From the IMG/VR virus record IMGVR_UViG_3300020029_000035, positions 1-6,134 of that record: a DNA stretch of 6,134 nt; one strand, 5' to 3'. Each line of letters opens with the position of its first letter. Position 1 is the first letter of the stretch. A program made the position numbers and the translations under genes. Below, piece by piece: positions 1 to 6,134 of this stretch. A model generated the notes under the pieces. It did no database searches. It worked only from the letters and a program-made list of their open reading frames with translations, and was not told the origin of the DNA. The DNA comes from a virus.

Positions 1-121
1 GTGTCCAAAACGCCTTCGACTTGTAAAATGGTTGTTTAGTGTCAGACATGATAGTAAGATTTAAAGAACGATAGAAAAATGCGCGGCCTCTCCAGCAGTC
101 GTTACCAATAACCTTCAGCAA
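1..121. repeat. Left copy of the terminal direct repeat (assembly overlap of a circular genome). It duplicates the 5' end of the lipobox ORF (1..49 = 6014..6062) and part of the upstream spacer.
   Basis: A base-by-base comparison by eye shows 1..121 identical to 6014..6134 (offset 6013). Confidence 0.93.
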
Positions 122-151
122 TTCACGAACTCTTGCCAAAGGGGTCCGCGC
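71..151 (-). terminator. Candidate GC-clamped stem-loop followed by a T-run on the coding strand. It could be an intrinsic-terminator-like element or an ssDNA structural element.
   Basis: 81..88 GCGCGGCC pairs with 143..151 GGTCCGCGC (T145 bulged). Pairing extends to 89..91/140..142 if one G-T pair is allowed. The enclosed loop is 48 nt (92..139), or 54 nt (89..142) counting only the GC core. On the coding strand the 3' arm is followed by ATTTTTC (A-run 75..79 in the window). It lies between the acidic ORF stop (183) and the lipobox ORF start (49 = 6062). Confidence 0.3.
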
Positions 152-182
152 ACGTAGCATATATCGTCAAGTAAAGAATGTA

Positions 183-2294: not shown

Positions 2295-3365
2295 TTAAAT
2301 ATTTAGTTGAAGTTTATAATGATCTCTCCAAAACTGAAGAATATCCTGATCTAACCAAGTAGGAGGGGCAAAATCAGGCATCCTCTGAGAGGACTCAGAG
2401 AAGCGCATCATCTGCTTTTGTTCCCACACATACGTCGCTCTACGGGATACGGCGGAATCGAGGCCAAACCGTTTAACGCACAAAGAAACAACACGCTTAA
2501 CCAGAGGAGACTTGCTAAAGCGTGCATAGCTATCAGCAGCGGTAATTGAGCGAGAAACTTCGTCTTCCGATTTAAGATACTTAAGATAATATCGAGGAAT
2601 CGCGTAATTATAATTGATACCCTTCGAAATATCAAAATAAGACCACGACGAAACACGGGCAGAAGGGCGAGGCATATAACCAAGAAAATCACCAACGCCA
2701 GCAGATACGAATTTTCGCGTATAACGGCGATGTTGGAGGAGGCGAGATAAAGGCGTAAGTTTTCCATTTACGGTAACGTATTTATCCGAAATTTCTTCGG
2801 GATTAAATTGAATTTGTTTAGTAACATATTTAACGCAATATCGGGCACGCTTATGGGTGGCTTTTGTCAACCAAACAAAGCCAAGACCTCGAACAGCAGA
2901 ACGAATTGTGTTGTAAAGAACGTTTGTGCCGAACAAAAAGCCATGAAAATGCAATCGAGGTTCATTTCCCATTTCAGGGTGAGTGCCGAACTCTTGGAAA
3001 AAGGCATGTTTAAACGAATGACCAAGTCTGTGTCGCAAACGCTCGTTAAAACGCCGGATGAAACGAGAAGGATCAAGCAGCGCCTCATTGTAATACTGTG
3101 GAGCAATAGTTATTGTGATAAAAATAGCCTGCTGACTATTAGCCTTACAACAAGCGAGCTCACGTTCAAGGCGAACGAACCAATCATTACGCTGACGACG
3201 CAAACAGTCTTCGCATTTTCCGCAAGGAACCATCAGCCACTGTCGCGCGATATCCCAGGGGCGGAGAGCTAAAGCAGACTTGGAAACGTCGGAACCATTA
3301 CGACAAGGGTTTTTCTTGTCAAAATAGCGACGGTTTCGTATCCATATGGGAGATGAGCAGGGCAT
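2295..3365 (-). CDS. VP4: Replication initiation protein VP4 (HUH superfamily rolling-circle endonuclease, phiX174 gpA-like), 356 aa.
   Basis: The N-terminus MPCSSPIWIRN is typical of microvirus VP4. A Cys cluster PCGKCEDC lies at 3204..3224. Motif I is FITITI. The HUH motif LHFHGFLF has HFH at 2943..2951 (CAT TTT CAT on the coding strand). The catalytic Tyr motif YCVKY lies at 2826..2840. Confidence 0.93.
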   Translation of the reverse strand: MPCSSPIWIRNRRYFDKKNPCRNGSDVSKSALALRPWDIARQWLMVPCGKCEDCLRRQRNDWFVRLERELACCKANSQQAIFITITIAPQYYNEALLDPSRFIRRFNERLRHRLGHSFKHAFFQEFGTHPEMGNEPRLHFHGFLFGTNVLYNTIRSAVRGLGFVWLTKATHKRARYCVKYVTKQIQFNPEEISDKYVTVNGKLTPLSRLLQHRRYTRKFVSAGVGDFLGYMPRPSARVSSWSYFDISKGINYNYAIPRYYLKYLKSEDEVSRSITAADSYARFSKSPLVKRVVSLCVKRFGLDSAVSRRATYVWEQKQMMRFSESSQRMPDFAPPTWLDQDILQFWRDHYKLQLNI

Positions 3366-3565
3366 TAGAACAAACTTTGGAGGTAATCGTATTTAGCATA
3401 AGGGTTATCACGGCGACAACGAGTAAGGTACTCGATCGCAGAAGTTTCGTCGGCGAACCAGGCGATAATAATTCGCTTCCTACGTCGATACACAGCAACA
3501 GAGTAACGAAGCGGGGAGCCATTAATAATAGGGGAAAACCTAGGCTGAAAATCGATATAATCCAT
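3365..3565 (-). CDS. Small basic hypothetical protein (66 aa from ATG 3565). The frame stays open upstream to ATG 3646 (93 aa) and TTG 3661 (98 aa).
   Basis: The stop TAA overlaps the Rep ATG as TAATG (3363..3367), which suggests translational coupling. The protein is Arg/Lys-rich (YRRRKR, CRRD). The start is ambiguous because the upstream extension runs through a GC-rich structured segment. Confidence 0.5.
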   Translation of the reverse strand: MDYIDFQPRFSPIINGSPLRYSVAVYRRRKRIIIAWFADETSAIEYLTRCRRDNPYAKYDYLQSLF

Positions 3566-3590
3566 GATTGAAAAGTTTAATTCATACAAC

Positions 3591-3690
3591 ACGAGCCTAA
3601 GCGGGCTGCGCTGTTTCGGGCCTCGATCTCGCGTCCGCGATATCATCGGCGCCGGAAACAATTACTCGCCGCGCTCTTAACGGCTCGAAA
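3591..3690. other. GC-rich structured segment in the spacer upstream of the small-ORF/Rep block. It is a candidate origin or other cis-acting ssDNA element.
   Basis: By hand count this 100-nt segment is about 61% G+C, against about 24% in the adjacent 3566..3590. An imperfect outer stem pairs 3592..3606 with 3668..3687 (6+4+2+3 bp with bulges). An inner hairpin pairs 3625..3632 with 3637..3644 around the tetraloop GTCC. Palindromes GATATC (3639..3644) and GGCGCC (3649..3654) are present. Confidence 0.35.
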
Positions 3691-3782
3691 ATATATAATA
3701 ACAAGAAAGCCACAGAGGAAAAGGATTCCCCTGAGGCTCAATAAGTTAAAGAACTCTTCCACCAAGCGGGCGGGTCACTACT

Positions 3783-4106
3783 CTAGTGCCCTTCCCCTTC
3801 TTCTTTCGACGTGCTTTCATTGTGGGCTAAATTAACACTGAACATAATAACGAGCGTATTATCGAAAAAATCGATCGAGAAATCAGGGTACGCAATCAGA
3901 GCCTCTACGAGCCTAGGAATAGAACTATGACTGATATAAGGCGAAGCGGAAATAGCGGAACACTCTACATAATCAGAAATGGGAGTGCAATCGAGGGAGT
4001 CGAGGCGAAGTGCCGAAAACTGGTCGTCTTTAATGTAACCTACCTGGACAAAGTCAACCTTAAGAGCCGGATTAACTCGTCGAATAACAACGTGGATCTG
4101 CGTCAT
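3783..4106 (-). CDS. Hypothetical protein, 107 aa, function unknown.
   Basis: The ATG at 4106 lies 11 nt (AT-rich) after the stop of the preceding ORF, on the same strand as the core genes. I recognise no motif. The C-terminal tail is acidic (SKEEGEGH). Confidence 0.5.
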   Translation of the reverse strand: MTQIHVVIRRVNPALKVDFVQVGYIKDDQFSALRLDSLDCTPISDYVECSAISASPYISHSSIPRLVEALIAYPDFSIDFFDNTLVIMFSVNLAHNESTSKEEGEGH

Positions 4107-4507: not shown

Positions 4508-5869
4508 CTAACGAGATCTACGGGTAGTACCATATGTGCTCGAATGTCCACTGCGATTCATTTCCGTTTTCGCATAACCGACAACGTTTCCTCTCGAATC
4601 ATAACGAGTTGTCAATGAGGAACCTGCGGAACTACTGGAAGAGCCGCCAGCTGAAATGGTGGTAGCTGCGCGGGACATGCCTCCACGGATTATACCTGCA
4701 CCAGTAATACTAGCGGCCGCGCCAACTAAAGCTTTAGAAATTTCAACATACGGATCAACCTTCGCGTTGCGAAGAGCAATACGGGCCTGCTCAGGAAGGA
4801 AGTCAGATGCGTTCGCTTCGTTTATAATAGTTTTATCGTGAAAATCTTTAAGCGACATTGAAATTTTAAAAGTCTTAGGGCCGGGGTTTCCACGAGTAAT
4901 GGGATTTTTGCTTCTAAGATTTTCTGAATACTGAGGATTCGGAATTTCGATATCGAAACGCTTTTCCCAGTTACGTGTGAGCTCATTAGCAGTATCGAGA
5001 TTATTTAAACGCAAAGACTCTATGACTTCGCGGGCCTGCTCACCAAGAATTTGATTAAGAGCGGCCTGAGTATTCATCATGAAGGCTTGAGCCGACATGA
5101 CTGCGCCTAAATTTTCATTCTCGATATTCAAGCGGCGAACCTCCGCATCGACAAGAGCAGCTTGGCTCTTCTTCTCAGCAATAGAGCTCAAAAGAGTAGC
5201 ATCAGAGATAAAGAGAGCGTTCTTCTCGATACTCTCCTGCACTCTAAGGACGTCCGCAACAGCCAAATTATGCTTAGTAGCAGCCTGATCTAAAGCTACA
5301 CGAGTCTCAGCCATAAGAGTATACATCTGCTTGCCGACATTTTGATCATCAATTGATCGAGCTTGAGCGTTATCAAGATTAGCAGCAGCATCATTACGGC
5401 TTACCGTTGACTGCGCAACCATATTCTGTGCGATAGCAGTGGGATCACTGACAGGAGAAGCACCGGGACCAATAGAGGAAGCGCCTGAAGGGCCAGAAGC
5501 AGAGGGCATAGGAGCAGAACCACCCGACATTGTAGCGTTTACGCCAACACCGGAAGAGCCTAAAACGGCCGCGGGCGTTACACCAGCCTTTAGGTAACGA
5601 TCAAAAACCTTCGAAGGATCATTATAGGCATTCTCGTAATCGAATTGCCTCTGCCAATTAGCATAAGAGAGCTCTGACTGCTTTTGCATTTGCTCTAAAG
5701 CATATTGCTGCTGGAGCTTCATTTGCTTTTGCTGGTAACGCCATTGGCGACGAGCATTCATTCCTCCGAAAAGCTGACCAAGAGCACCGGAAATTAAACC
5801 AGTAGCGCCTGTGGAGGCGGCGGACTGACCGAGAGCTTGACCAAAAGAAGAGGCGATAGGGGCAGGCAT
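4508..5869 (-). CDS. VP2: VP2 minor capsid / DNA pilot protein (phiX174 gpH functional analogue), 453 aa.
   Basis: The N-terminus is Gly/Ala-rich and hydrophobic (GQALGQSAASTGATGLISGALGQLFGG). It is followed by the Q-rich segment RRQWRYQQKQMKLQQQYALEQMQKQ and YENAYNDP...RYLKAGVTPAAV. A long predicted helical or coiled central part and a Gly/Ser-rich tail follow. This is the architecture I recognise from microvirus VP2 proteins. Confidence 0.85.
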   Translation of the reverse strand: MPAPIASSFGQALGQSAASTGATGLISGALGQLFGGMNARRQWRYQQKQMKLQQQYALEQMQKQSELSYANWQRQFDYENAYNDPSKVFDRYLKAGVTPAAVLGSSGVGVNATMSGGSAPMPSASGPSGASSIGPGASPVSDPTAIAQNMVAQSTVSRNDAAANLDNAQARSIDDQNVGKQMYTLMAETRVALDQAATKHNLAVADVLRVQESIEKNALFISDATLLSSIAEKKSQAALVDAEVRRLNIENENLGAVMSAQAFMMNTQAALNQILGEQAREVIESLRLNNLDTANELTRNWEKRFDIEIPNPQYSENLRSKNPITRGNPGPKTFKISMSLKDFHDKTIINEANASDFLPEQARIALRNAKVDPYVEISKALVGAAASITGAGIIRGGMSRAATTISAGGSSSSSAGSSLTTRYDSRGNVVGYAKTEMNRSGHSSTYGTTRRSR

Positions 5870-5870
5870 A

Positions 5871-6062
5871 CTACACGTGTGTTATATTGTTAGAACGAAT
5901 AATGTAATCAACACGAACGGTGTCAATATGAACGCCACTACGCTGCATTCTAGCTTGAGCAGCACACGAAGCAAGAAAAAAGGCAGCCAAAGCAGCGACA
6001 ATAGAAGAGACGAGTGTCCAAAACGCCTTCGACTTGTAAAATGGTTGTTTAGTGTCAGACAT
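5871..6062 (-). CDS. Small putative lipoprotein or membrane-anchored protein, 63 aa (mature part about 31 aa).
   Basis: From ATG 6062 the sequence is MSDTKQPFYKSKAF, then the hydrophobic WTLVSSIVAALAAFF, then the lipobox L-A-S-C (Cys codon at 5964..5966), then a short polar tail. This fits a signal peptidase II-type signal. The stop TAG (5871..5873) is 1 nt from the VP2 ATG (5867..5869). Confidence 0.6.
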   Translation of the reverse strand: MSDTKQPFYKSKAFWTLVSSIVAALAAFFLASCAAQARMQRSGVHIDTVRVDYIIRSNNITHV

Positions 6063-6134
6063 GATAGTAAGATTTAAAGAACGATAGAAAAATGCGCGGC
6101 CTCTCCAGCAGTCGTTACCAATAACCTTCAGCAA
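6014..6134. repeat. Right copy of the terminal direct repeat (assembly overlap of a circular genome).
   Basis: Identical to 1..121. The window simply ends inside the repeat. Confidence 0.93.

What the first reader, a model, noticed from the sequence alone, without database searches (positions are those of the whole stretch)
5871..6062. Lipobox-bearing 63-aa gene translationally coupled to VP2: candidate lysis or superinfection-exclusion lipoprotein in a microvirus
The ORF has the three parts of a bacterial lipoprotein signal: a positively charged n-region (KQPFYKSK), a hydrophobic core of about 16 residues, and a canonical lipobox LASC. That leaves a mature peptide of only about 31 residues (CAAQARMQRSGVHIDTVRVDYIIRSNNITHV). 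Its stop codon is 1 nt from the VP2 start, so it is probably co-expressed with a virion gene. Outside the phiX-like group (protein E), lysis functions of microviruses are largely unassigned. Small phage lipoproteins in other phage families act as outer-membrane spanin subunits or as receptor-blocking exclusion factors (T5 Llp, Cor-type). Either role would be new for this phage group. No acidic residues follow the Cys, which argues for a periplasm-facing rather than surface-exposed lipoprotein in a Bacteroidota host.
Basis: partly seen in the sequence, partly recalled or inferred. Interest (0 to 1): 0.72.

Follow-up and report, generated by a model that had tools for sequence, protein, structure and literature searches.

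The report
Conserved small lipoprotein gene in gut microviruses
A 63-codon gene just upstream of the DNA-pilot gene of this gut microvirus is real, is the most strongly conserved gene in the genome, and almost certainly encodes a lipid-anchored envelope peptide whose role (host lysis or blocking of re-infection) is still open but now testable.

Summary
Window 5871-6062 (minus strand) is a genuine 63-aa gene with a bacterial lipoprotein signal (Cys33). Its stop lies 1 nt before the VP2 start.

- **Coding evidence:** dN/dS is 0.058, the lowest of any gene in the genome. The Cys is invariant in every true family member. Position -1 is always S, G or A.
- **Distribution:** every sampled GenBank genome with VP1 at least 52% identical carries the gene abutting VP2.
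- **Start codon:** the 100-aa version called by many gene finders is an artefact. The upstream extension is conserved non-coding DNA.
- **New findings:**
  - The leader is more conserved than the ~31-aa mature peptide.
  - AlphaFold predicts the mature peptide as a beta-hairpin.
  - Mature-peptide types follow the VP2 tree, not the VP1 tree.
  - A relative sits in an Alistipes prophage.
  - The gene never co-occurs with the M15 peptidase found in other gut microviruses.
- **Function is unresolved.** I rank a colicin-lysis-protein-like release function first (~0.35) and Llp-like superinfection exclusion second (~0.28). A conserved membrane-protein ORF embedded in Rep is a rival lysis candidate.
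- **Prior knowledge:** one NCBI record already auto-labels a homologue "lipoprotein". No paper describes it.

The parts
5871..6062 (-). 63-codon lipoprotein-precursor gene, stop codon included
   Evidence: The ORF is listed. Coding periodicity and dN/dS of 0.058 come from 79 relatives. There are 392 homologues in the protein collection.
5967..6062 (-). Leader, codons 1-32: basic n-region (K5, K10, K12) followed by a hydrophobic helix. This is the most conserved part of the protein.
   Evidence: AlphaFold predicts a helix at residues 12-32. Mean pairwise identity is 0.69 for residues 11-29 against 0.36 for the mature part. dN/dS is 0.040 against 0.080. K12, F14, W15, A24 and F29 are at least 90% conserved.
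5964..5975 (-). Lipobox L-A-S-C (codons 30-33). Cys33 is the predicted lipid-attachment and cleavage site.
   Evidence: The PS51257 pattern is met in the window and in 48 of 53 diverse members. The Cys is invariant and position -1 is always S, G or A.
5874..5966 (-). Mature peptide, 31 residues (C33-V63), predicted as a beta-hairpin
   Evidence: AlphaFold predicts strands at 34-42 and 48-56, with mean pLDDT 79.8. G43, H45 and D47 are at least 90% conserved. The region diverges into discrete types in relatives.
5867..5873 (-). Stop/start junction TAG-T-ATG linking the gene to VP2
   Evidence: Seen directly. The gap is 1 nt in 72 genomes and 2 nt in 7. It is also 1 nt in Tortoise microvirus 7 and in Poophage.
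4508..5869 (-). VP2 / DNA pilot protein gene (453 aa), the downstream partner
   Evidence: It matches PHROG 8689, 'pilot protein for DNA ejection'. The mature-peptide type of the lipobox gene follows the VP2 tree.
57..153 (-). Strongly conserved non-coding element directly upstream of the gene (about -104 to -8 from the ATG). Part of it is duplicated at 6070-6134. It contains the inverted repeat TGCGCGG...CCGCGCA followed by a T-run.
   Evidence: It is near-invariant in 79 relatives and shows no codon periodicity. It folds only weakly (z = -1.8). It matches no Rfam family and no promoter or terminator consensus on the gene's strand.

Best explanation
**Shown or strongly inferred (about 0.85).** The gene encodes a Sec-exported precursor of the signal-peptidase-II type. 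After membrane insertion, N-terminus inside, Cys33 would be diacylglyceryl-modified. The precursor would then be cut before Cys33, giving two products:
- a 32-residue leader peptide that stays in the inner membrane;
- a 31-residue lipid-anchored beta-hairpin facing the periplasm.

It is a core gene of this clade of gut microviruses, whose hosts are probably Bacteroidota. It is expressed as one unit with VP2.

**Inferred function (about 0.35, my first choice).** It is the phage's envelope-disrupting release (lysis) factor and works like the colicin lysis / bacteriocin-release lipoproteins. In those proteins a roughly 30-residue lipopeptide and an unusually stable leader peptide together damage the envelope. 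This reading would explain why the leader is the most constrained part of the protein. It would also explain why these genomes carry no peptidoglycan hydrolase.
For: **Lipoprotein nature**
- The PS51257 rule is met.
- The Cys is invariant and position -1 is always S, G or A across family members that share under 50% identity.
- The positive charges lie on the N-terminal side of the helix (sequence).
- Weak NCBIfam hits go only to lipoprotein signal regions.
- An NCBI nr homologue is named 'lipoprotein'.

**Essential-function indicators**
- It has the lowest dN/dS in the genome: 0.058, against o98a 0.085, VP4 0.094, VP1 0.118 and VP2 0.27.
- It is present in all 40 listed GenBank genomes with VP1 at least 52% identical.
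- It is also present in a clade with a different gene order, including an Alistipes prophage.

**Leader acting as effector**
- The leader is more conserved than the mature part (identity 0.69 against 0.36; dN/dS 0.040 against 0.080), while synonymous sites are saturated (pS 0.63). The constraint is therefore on the peptide, not the DNA.
- Stable, functional leader peptides are documented for bacteriocin-release and colicin A lysis proteins (references 16-18 listed in PMC5727409).

**Lysis niche**
- The window has no hydrolase or other annotated lysis gene.
- None of 106 module-bearing sequences has an M15 peptidase. Four M15-bearing microviruses, including the cultured Bacteroides phage phiHBP1, lack the lipobox gene.
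- Only phiX174 has a known lysis mechanism among microviruses (PMC3394797).
Against: - No experiment exists. Lipidation and lysis are both inferred.
- A second conserved membrane-protein gene (119 aa, 2-3 hydrophobic segments, basic C-terminus) is embedded in Rep. It looks more like a phiX-E-type or holin-type lysis gene.
- Mature-peptide type follows VP2 lineage rather than VP1. Lysis does not predict this, apart from simple linkage.
- The gene lies upstream of, and is coupled to, a virion gene. It is the first gene after the dif-like site in a prophage. Both positions are awkward for a lethal protein.
- The never-with-M15 pattern is confounded by phylogeny, and four related genomes have neither gene.
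- No phage is known to lyse with a lone lipoprotein.
- There is no sequence similarity to colicin lysis proteins (no Pfam hit).
Confidence: 0.35

Rival explanations
1. It is a superinfection-exclusion or receptor-masking lipoprotein. The periplasmic lipid-anchored beta-hairpin binds the periplasmic face of the phage's outer-membrane receptor, or the incoming VP2 conduit. This blocks adsorption or DNA delivery by related microviruses, and it protects progeny from sticking to cell debris, as T5 Llp, Cor and Rtp45 do.
For: - The characterised small phage lipoproteins of this kind are periplasmic. Llp is encoded next to the receptor-binding gene pb5 (PMC9586334). Rtp45 is about 6 kDa and forms a beta-sheet with LptD (PMC12685063).
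- Here the gene abuts VP2. Its mature-peptide types (A, B, B') are each monophyletic on the VP2 tree but scattered on the VP1 tree.
- VP2 and VP1 determine host range in the cultured Bacteroides microvirus (PMC13064476).
- The mature part is a predicted beta-hairpin.
- In the Alistipes prophage the gene is the first gene after the dif-like site, with a TAnnTTTG box 31 nt upstream.
- Carrying a gokushovirus genome confers superinfection immunity. The passages retrieved name no mechanism (PMC7062461).
Against: - The presumed effector (the mature peptide) is less conserved than the leader. Exclusion does not explain this.
- It has the lowest dN/dS in the genome and is universal in the clade, which is unusual for exclusion genes.
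- The mature peptide is half the size of Llp or Rtp45. The window's version has no second Cys.
- There is no sequence or fold similarity to Llp or Cor.
- Co-inheritance with VP2 may simply reflect adjacency.
- Within type A the peptide is nearly invariant although VP2 evolves fast (dN/dS 0.27).
Confidence: 0.28
2. It is a partner or accessory of another phage membrane component. It might work with the Rep-embedded 119-aa membrane protein as a two-part envelope system. Alternatively it might work with VP2 during entry or assembly. In either case it would not be a stand-alone lysis or exclusion factor.
For: - The embedded ORF co-occurs strictly with the short-form lipobox gene. It is present in all window-type genomes tested and absent from the long-form, M15 and distant clades.
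- The gene is translationally joined to VP2 and co-inherited with it.
Against: - The co-occurrence is confounded by clade.
- No interaction can be tested with these tools.
- The embedded protein does not look like an i-spanin, and the genome has no endolysin.
- A periplasmic lipopeptide and cytoplasmic procapsid-bound VP2 would not meet in the producing cell.
Confidence: 0.15
3. It is not lipidated. The N-terminal segment is an uncleaved transmembrane helix of a small membrane peptide, comparable to phiX174 E or levivirus LysM. The Cys would be conserved for another reason.
For: - The hydrophobic stretch is long for a lipoprotein signal (about 17-19 residues) and is helix-forming.
- It is the most conserved region, as in E, whose transmembrane domain carries the activity (my own knowledge).
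- In a sister clade the ORF continues for about 140 codons overprinted on another gene. This resembles E inside D.
Against: - The invariant Cys is always preceded by S, G or A, with small or hydrophobic residues at -2 and -3, in more than 50 lineages. That is exactly the signal-peptidase-II requirement, and nothing else predicts it.
- The charge distribution favours an N-in, signal-like orientation.
- There is no Pfam match to the phiX lysis protein family.
Confidence: 0.1
4. It is a chance ORF, or the tail of a longer 100-aa gene.
For: Many gene callers report a 100-aa form. The strict lipoprotein rule fires by chance on about 0.6% of ORFs.
Against: - Codon periodicity and dN/dS of 0.058 apply only within the 63 codons. 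The 37 upstream codons show no periodicity.
- Distant relatives start at the equivalent Met.
Confidence: 0.01

Closest known systems
Colicin lysis proteins / bacteriocin release proteins (Pfam Lysis_col; pCloDF13 BRP, colicin A and E lysis proteins)
   Same: - They are very small signal-peptidase-II lipoprotein precursors with a mature lipopeptide of only about 30 residues (my own knowledge).
- Their leader peptide is stable after cleavage and has a function of its own (references 16-18 in PMC5727409).
- Their effect is envelope damage and release of a macromolecular product.
- Here the mature peptide is 31 residues and the leader is the most constrained part.
   Different: - They are plasmid-encoded in enterobacteria, not phage-encoded in Bacteroidota.
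- There is no sequence similarity (no Pfam hit at E up to 0.1).
- The leader here is longer (32 residues).
- Activation of outer-membrane phospholipase, or any lytic effect, is untested.
Phage superinfection-exclusion lipoproteins (T5 Llp, T1/phi80 Cor, Rtp45)
   Same: - They are small periplasmic phage lipoproteins. Llp is encoded beside the gene for the receptor-binding protein pb5.
- Rtp45 binds its target partly through beta-strand pairing (PMC9586334, PMC12685063).
- Here the gene abuts VP2 and is co-inherited with it, and the mature part is a beta-hairpin.
   Different: - Their mature part is about twice as large (about 6-7 kDa), and Llp has a disulphide.
- They come from tailed dsDNA phages.
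- No sequence or structural match was found.
- Here the leader, not the mature part, is the best-conserved region, and the gene is core with the lowest dN/dS in the genome.
phiX174 protein E (single-gene lysis)
   Same: - It is a microvirus protein.
- It is a small membrane-targeted protein in which the N-terminal hydrophobic helix is the functional, conserved part and the rest is tolerant of change (my own knowledge).
- In the sister clade the ORF is overprinted on another gene.
   Different: - E has no lipobox and is embedded in gene D.
- The window's gene has its own non-overlapping 192 nt.
- There is no homology.
- In this genome the E-like architecture fits better the ORF embedded in Rep (2408-2767, minus strand).
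Outer-membrane spanin subunits (Rz1-type o-spanins)
   Same: They are small phage lipoproteins with a role in lysis of Gram-negative hosts.
   Different: - They need an inner-membrane spanin partner, and they act after a holin and an endolysin. None of these is present.
- o-Spanins are proline-rich with Cys for disulphides (my own knowledge). This mature peptide has no Pro and no second Cys.

Membership tests
Bacterial-type lipoprotein precursor (signal peptidase II substrate; PROSITE PS51257) | Basic n-region: K or R within the first seven residues | tested here: met
   K5 is within the first seven residues (K10 and K12 follow). The condition is met in 45 of the 48 pattern-matching members.
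Bacterial-type lipoprotein precursor (signal peptidase II substrate; PROSITE PS51257) | Uncharged hydrophobic h-region followed by a lipobox [LIVMFWSTAG]2-[LIVMFYSTAGCQ]-[AGS]-C, with the Cys at position 15-35 | tested here: met
   The window has F-L-A-S-C with Cys at 33. 48 of 53 diverse members match. The five failures differ only at positions -3/-4. The Cys is invariant.
Bacterial-type lipoprotein precursor (signal peptidase II substrate; PROSITE PS51257) | Actual diacylglyceryl modification and globomycin-sensitive cleavage | not testable with these tools
   This needs labelling or mass spectrometry, and a Cys33 mutant. SignalP and LipoP are not available here.
Llp/Cor-type superinfection-exclusion lipoproteins | Sequence or structural similarity to Llp, Cor or Rtp45 | tested here: not met
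   There are no Pfam or PHROG hits. A profile search against PDB sequences found nothing below E = 0.9. Foldseek against the PDB found nothing with E below 2.
Llp/Cor-type superinfection-exclusion lipoproteins | Gene located beside the receptor-binding or entry protein gene | tested here: met
   The gene abuts VP2 with a 1-2 nt gap in 79 genomes. The mature type follows the VP2 lineage.
Llp/Cor-type superinfection-exclusion lipoproteins | Expression blocks adsorption or infection by the cognate phage | not testable with these tools
   No cultured phage or host exists for this clade.
Colicin lysis / bacteriocin release lipoproteins (Pfam Lysis_col) | Sequence membership in the family | tested here: not met
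   The Pfam scan gave no match at E up to 0.1.
Colicin lysis / bacteriocin release lipoproteins (Pfam Lysis_col) | Tiny lipoprotein precursor with a mature peptide of about 30 residues | tested here: met
   The mature peptide is 31 residues here and 27-36 in relatives.
Colicin lysis / bacteriocin release lipoproteins (Pfam Lysis_col) | Leader peptide that is stable and functional after cleavage | tested here: inconclusive
   The leader is under stronger protein-level constraint than the mature part, which fits a function of its own. Stability cannot be measured here.
o-Spanin (Rz1-like) | Partner inner-membrane spanin gene plus holin and endolysin context | tested here: not met
   The genome has no such genes. 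tblastn with one query, the phiHBP1 M15 peptidase, found no match in any of 106 module-bearing sequences.
phiX174 E-type single-gene lysis protein | Homology to E, or location embedded in another gene | tested here: not met
   There is no Pfam match. The window's gene does not overlap another gene. Only the sister-clade long forms are overprinted.

The most novel reading that the evidence does not exclude
The conserved 32-residue leader, released into the inner membrane by signal peptidase II, is itself the lethal effector of a single-gene lysis system. It might act alone or together with the lipidated hairpin. It could act by membrane damage, by jamming lipoprotein processing, or by blocking a cell-wall precursor step. 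This would be the first lysis gene identified for microviruses of Bacteroidota. It would also be a new way for a phage to lyse a cell, using the host's own lipoprotein pathway to deliver a toxic peptide.
Probability: 0.2. Interest if true: 0.85.

Novelty: new variant of a known kind. Interest (0 to 1): 0.62.

Why it matters
Microviruses are among the most abundant phages of the mammalian gut. Outside the phiX174 group, neither their lysis mechanism nor their superinfection-immunity mechanism is known (PMC3394797, PMC7062461).

This gene is a short, well-defined, highly conserved candidate for one of those functions. It comes with clear mutational handles:
- Cys33;
- leader against mature peptide;
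- the natural type A and type B variants.

If it is lytic, it is a new kind of protein antibiotic acting on Bacteroidota envelopes. If it is an exclusion factor, its beta-hairpin should point to the still unknown receptor or entry route of these phages.

It also matters for annotation. The gene is often missed or called 37 codons too long.

Tried and rejected
**Searches that gave nothing usable**
- Pfam, PHROGs, NCBIfam and PADLOC scans. There was no family membership. The only results were weak matches to lipoprotein signal regions and sub-threshold PADLOC PDC-M02A hits.
- Profile search of PDB sequences and Foldseek against the PDB.
- Rfam on the whole window.
- Sigma-70 promoter/terminator scan and a TAnnTTTG search near the gene. 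Neither explains how the gene is transcribed.
- A dif-like site search in the window. It found only 2-mismatch chance-level matches.
- Literature searches for Microviridae with lipobox, lipoprotein or single-gene lysis. No paper describes this gene.
- One paper on the colicin A lysis protein leader could not be opened.

**Readings rejected**
- The 100-aa reading. The upstream 37 codons show no codon periodicity.
- P0164 and P0173, large proteins that matched the hairpin region. One is a low-complexity repeat. The other is a bacterial multi-Ig protein. Both are chance similarity.
- 'The family is really a 190-aa protein'. The long forms are the ~62-aa module and a J-like mini-gene in one frame. 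Why no stop intervenes remains unexplained.
- The spanin reading, for lack of a partner and an endolysin.

**Inconclusive test**
- Complementarity with the M15 peptidase. The two genes never co-occur, but the pattern is confounded by clade, and a third group has neither gene.

Full report
**What the window is.** The 6134-nt window is a complete circular microvirus genome. It carries a 121-nt assembly overlap (1-121 = 6014-6134), so the true length is 6013 nt.

All genes are on the minus strand:
- the 63-aa ORF (5871-6062);
- VP2, the pilot protein (4508-5869);
- three small ORFs;
- VP4, the Rep protein (2295-3365);
- VP1, the capsid protein (492-2291);
- a 98-aa acidic ORF (183-479).

The nearest GenBank relatives are unclassified Microviridae from pig, deer, rodent, lemur and tortoise faeces.

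**The observation.** This covers the sequence, K-rich n-region, hydrophobic core, LASC lipobox, Cys33, the 31-residue mature part, and a TAG stop one base before the VP2 ATG.

The protein passes the PROSITE PS51257 rule. That rule fires on about 0.6% of unrelated ORFs in these genomes. A single match therefore proves little, and the strong evidence is comparative.

**It is a gene, and the 63-aa start is right.** I collected 80 related IMG/VR genomes, 392 protein homologues and 42 GenBank records.
- In 79 aligned relatives, entropy at codon positions 1/2/3 is 0.25/0.13/1.09 inside the ORF.
- dN/dS is 0.058 with synonymous sites near saturation (pS 0.63). Four of the five other frames give dN/dS of 1.2-5. 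The antisense frame that shares third codon positions gives 0.145.
- Many gene callers report a 100-aa version that starts at an in-frame upstream ATG. Those 37 codons are highly conserved but show no periodicity (0.25/0.29/0.32). They are therefore a conserved non-coding element, not coding sequence.
- Distant relatives start at the equivalent Met.

**It is a lipoprotein precursor.** Conservation supports this across the family.
- The Cys is invariant in 74 distinct close proteins, in 53 of 53 representatives clustered at 50% identity, and in every true family member among 174 proteins.
- Position -1 is always S, G or A.
- 48 of 53 members pass the full pattern.
- The charges favour an N-in orientation.
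- AlphaFold, run with a 42-sequence alignment (mean pLDDT 79.8), predicts a helix at 12-32. A beta-hairpin follows directly after the Cys, with strands at 34-42 and 48-56.
- Weak NCBIfam hits go only to lipoprotein signal regions.
- One nr homologue is already auto-named 'MAG TPA: lipoprotein [Microviridae sp.]'.
- I could not run SignalP or LipoP, and lipidation itself is inferred.

**It is a core gene with an unusual conservation pattern.**
- About 14 GenBank genomes with VP1 59-69% identical to the window's gave no tblastn hit to the protein.
- All six that I opened have a 65-78-aa lipobox ORF ending 2-4 nt before VP2. Five share the same leader (...SKKFWTLVA.IVAAL.A[FY]F..SC). The sixth (L092) has a different leader with a lipobox.
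- All six have a strongly diverged mature peptide, which I call type B: C-TTRHYVVQSASSIKSGDTTRTTITYEQVGNFKRP.
- A type-B query recovers the rest. As a result, all 40 listed genomes with VP1 at least 52% identical carry the gene.
- The stop-to-ATG gap is 1 nt in 72 genomes and 2 nt in 7.
- The gene has the lowest dN/dS in the genome: 0.058, against 0.085 (o98a), 0.094 (VP4), 0.118 (VP1) and 0.26-0.29 (o107, VP2, o105).
- The leader is more conserved than the mature peptide. Pairwise identity is 0.69 for residues 11-29 against 0.36 for the mature part. dN/dS is 0.040 against 0.080.
- Because synonymous sites in the leader vary freely, this constraint acts on the peptide. Ordinary signal peptides are not conserved in this way.

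**Context and host.**
- A scan of representative bacterial genomes found one relative, in a prophage of Alistipes montrealensis (Bacteroidota).
- There the gene is the first gene after a dif-like site. The site contains TTATGTTAAAT, which is identical to the XerD arm of E. coli dif (my own knowledge of the dif sequence).
- A TAnnTTTG box lies 31 nt upstream of the gene in that prophage.
- Another relative is a prophage in contig GCA_965317415.1.
- The window itself has no dif-like site and no recognisable promoter next to the gene.
- The host of the window's own clade is inferred, not shown.

**The long forms.** About 30 of the 56 representatives are 180-220 aa long, with the module at the N-terminus.
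- In nine such genomes the module is followed by a different gene, not VP2. That gene has normal composition, is well conserved, and starts in the +2 frame at module codon ~60-64.
- The module's own frame runs on without a stop for about 140 codons. It ends in a conserved basic tail (...RRGGRRG.GRPK..K..PLGGSHL).
- Codon bias alone would allow this with P of about 0.02 per lineage.
- The window encodes the same basic motif as a stand-alone 24-codon mini-ORF, MKARRKKKGKGTRVVTRPLGGRVL (3746-3820, minus strand). It is conserved in 76 of 81 relatives.
- I therefore read the long forms as the ~62-aa module and a J-like mini-gene in one frame. Why no stop intervenes is unexplained.

**Function: evidence for lysis.**
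- The gene is core, under the strongest constraint, and has a functional-looking leader.
- The genome has no hydrolase or other annotated lysis gene.
- The gene never co-occurs with the M15 peptidase that Roux et al. proposed as a microviral endolysin. Zero of 106 module-bearing sequences have the peptidase. Four of four peptidase-bearing microviruses, including the cultured Bacteroides phage phiHBP1, lack the module.
- The closest analogue is the colicin lysis / bacteriocin-release lipoprotein. It has a mature lipopeptide of about 30 residues and a stable leader with its own activity (references in PMC5727409; the size is my own knowledge).

**Function: evidence against lysis.**
- VP4 has two stretches of suppressed synonymous variation, at codons ~191-250 and ~271-320. 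They coincide with a +1-frame ORF of 119 aa (2408-2767, minus strand).
- That ORF has 2-3 hydrophobic segments and a basic C-terminus. It is open in 75 of 75 relatives and 33-57% identical in distant window-type genomes. It is an E-like or holin-like rival.
- The M15 pattern is confounded by clade, and four related genomes have neither gene.

**Function: evidence for exclusion.**
- The known small phage exclusion lipoproteins are periplasmic. Llp is encoded beside the receptor-binding gene pb5 (PMC9586334). Rtp45 pairs a beta-strand with LptD (PMC12685063).
- Here the mature types A, B and B' are each monophyletic on the VP2 tree but scattered on the VP1 tree.
- VP2 contributes to host range in phiHBP1.
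- Microvirus carriage confers superinfection immunity, and the retrieved passages name no mechanism (PMC7062461).
- Against this reading, exclusion does not explain the leader conservation or the extreme constraint. Linkage to VP2 may be mere adjacency.

**Verdict.**
- A real, core, lipoprotein-type gene: about 0.85.
- A lysis or release effector of the colicin-lysis-protein kind: about 0.35.
- An exclusion lipoprotein: about 0.28.
- A partner of another phage membrane component: about 0.15.
- An uncleaved transmembrane peptide: about 0.10.

It belongs to none of the named families by sequence or fold. It is best described as a new variant of the small phage lipoprotein theme, in a phage family where none has been described in the literature.

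Noticed in passing
window 2408-2767 (-): A 119-aa ORF lies in the +1 frame inside VP4/Rep (VP4 codons 199-318). It has 2-3 hydrophobic segments and a basic C-terminus (...PPYPVERR...). It coincides with two stretches of strongly reduced synonymous variation in VP4. It is open in 75 of 75 relatives and 33-57% identical in distant window-type genomes. It has no Pfam or PHROG family. It is probably a real overlapping membrane-protein gene and a candidate lysis gene.
   Followed up: partly
window 3746-3820 (-): A 24-codon mini-ORF, MKARRKKKGKGTRVVTRPLGGRVL, overlaps the 3' end of the 107-aa ORF where synonymous variation drops. It is conserved in 76 of 81 relatives and in several distant genomes. 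It resembles the small basic DNA-binding (J-type) proteins of microviruses, a resemblance I recall from memory.
   Followed up: partly
L084 1512-2114; L085 6001-6606; L086 8001-8609; L093-L098: In a sister clade the lipobox module's frame runs on for about 140 codons with no stop, across a conserved gene in the +2 frame. It ends in the same basic ...PLGGSHL motif. Codon bias alone gives P of about 0.02 per lineage, yet 9 of 9 genomes and about 30 representative clusters show it. It is unknown whether a fusion protein is made.
   Followed up: partly
window 57-153 (-), partly repeated at 6070-6134: A non-coding element of about 100 nt upstream of the lipobox gene is more conserved than any coding region in 79 relatives. 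It contains the inverted repeat TGCGCGG...CCGCGCA followed by a T-run. Its fold is only modest (z = -1.8) and it matches no Rfam family. It may be a replication origin or an expression signal.
   Followed up: partly
window 1-121 and 6014-6134: An exact 121-nt terminal direct repeat is present. It is the assembly overlap of a circular genome of 6013 nt. The finding's ORF spans the junction.
   Followed up: yes
L086 7906-7918 and 7963-7970: The Alistipes montrealensis prophage has a dif-like site at its edge (TATTATGTTAAAT, containing the E. coli XerD-arm sequence TTATGTTAAAT). A Bacteroidota-type TAnnTTTG box lies 31 nt upstream of the lipobox gene. An intrinsic-terminator-like hairpin of the host gene lies just before these.
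   Followed up: no
window 3365-3661 (-): The 98-aa ORF just upstream of VP4 is recognisable in only 6 of 81 close relatives. It therefore lies in a hypervariable region of the genome.
   Followed up: no
VP1 (492-2291) versus VP2 (4508-5869) across L001-L104: The VP1 and VP2 trees are incongruent. The lipobox-gene-plus-VP2 block and the VP1 block recombine independently, so a breakpoint must lie between VP1 and the mature-peptide region.
   Followed up: partly
window 5907-5927 (-), mature residues 46-52 (IDTVRVD): All mature-peptide types keep a D-[ST] at the start of the second strand (A: DTVRV; B: DTTRT; B': DSVVI). This loosely resembles the TonB-box consensus [DE]-T-x-x-V of TonB-dependent receptors and colicins, which I recall from memory. 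It could equally be an ordinary turn motif.
   Followed up: no
protein family alignment A3: Three members give sub-threshold matches (best E = 7e-4) to PADLOC candidate defence protein PDC-M02A models. The match covers residues 23-59 of the window's protein. The significance is unclear.
   Followed up: no
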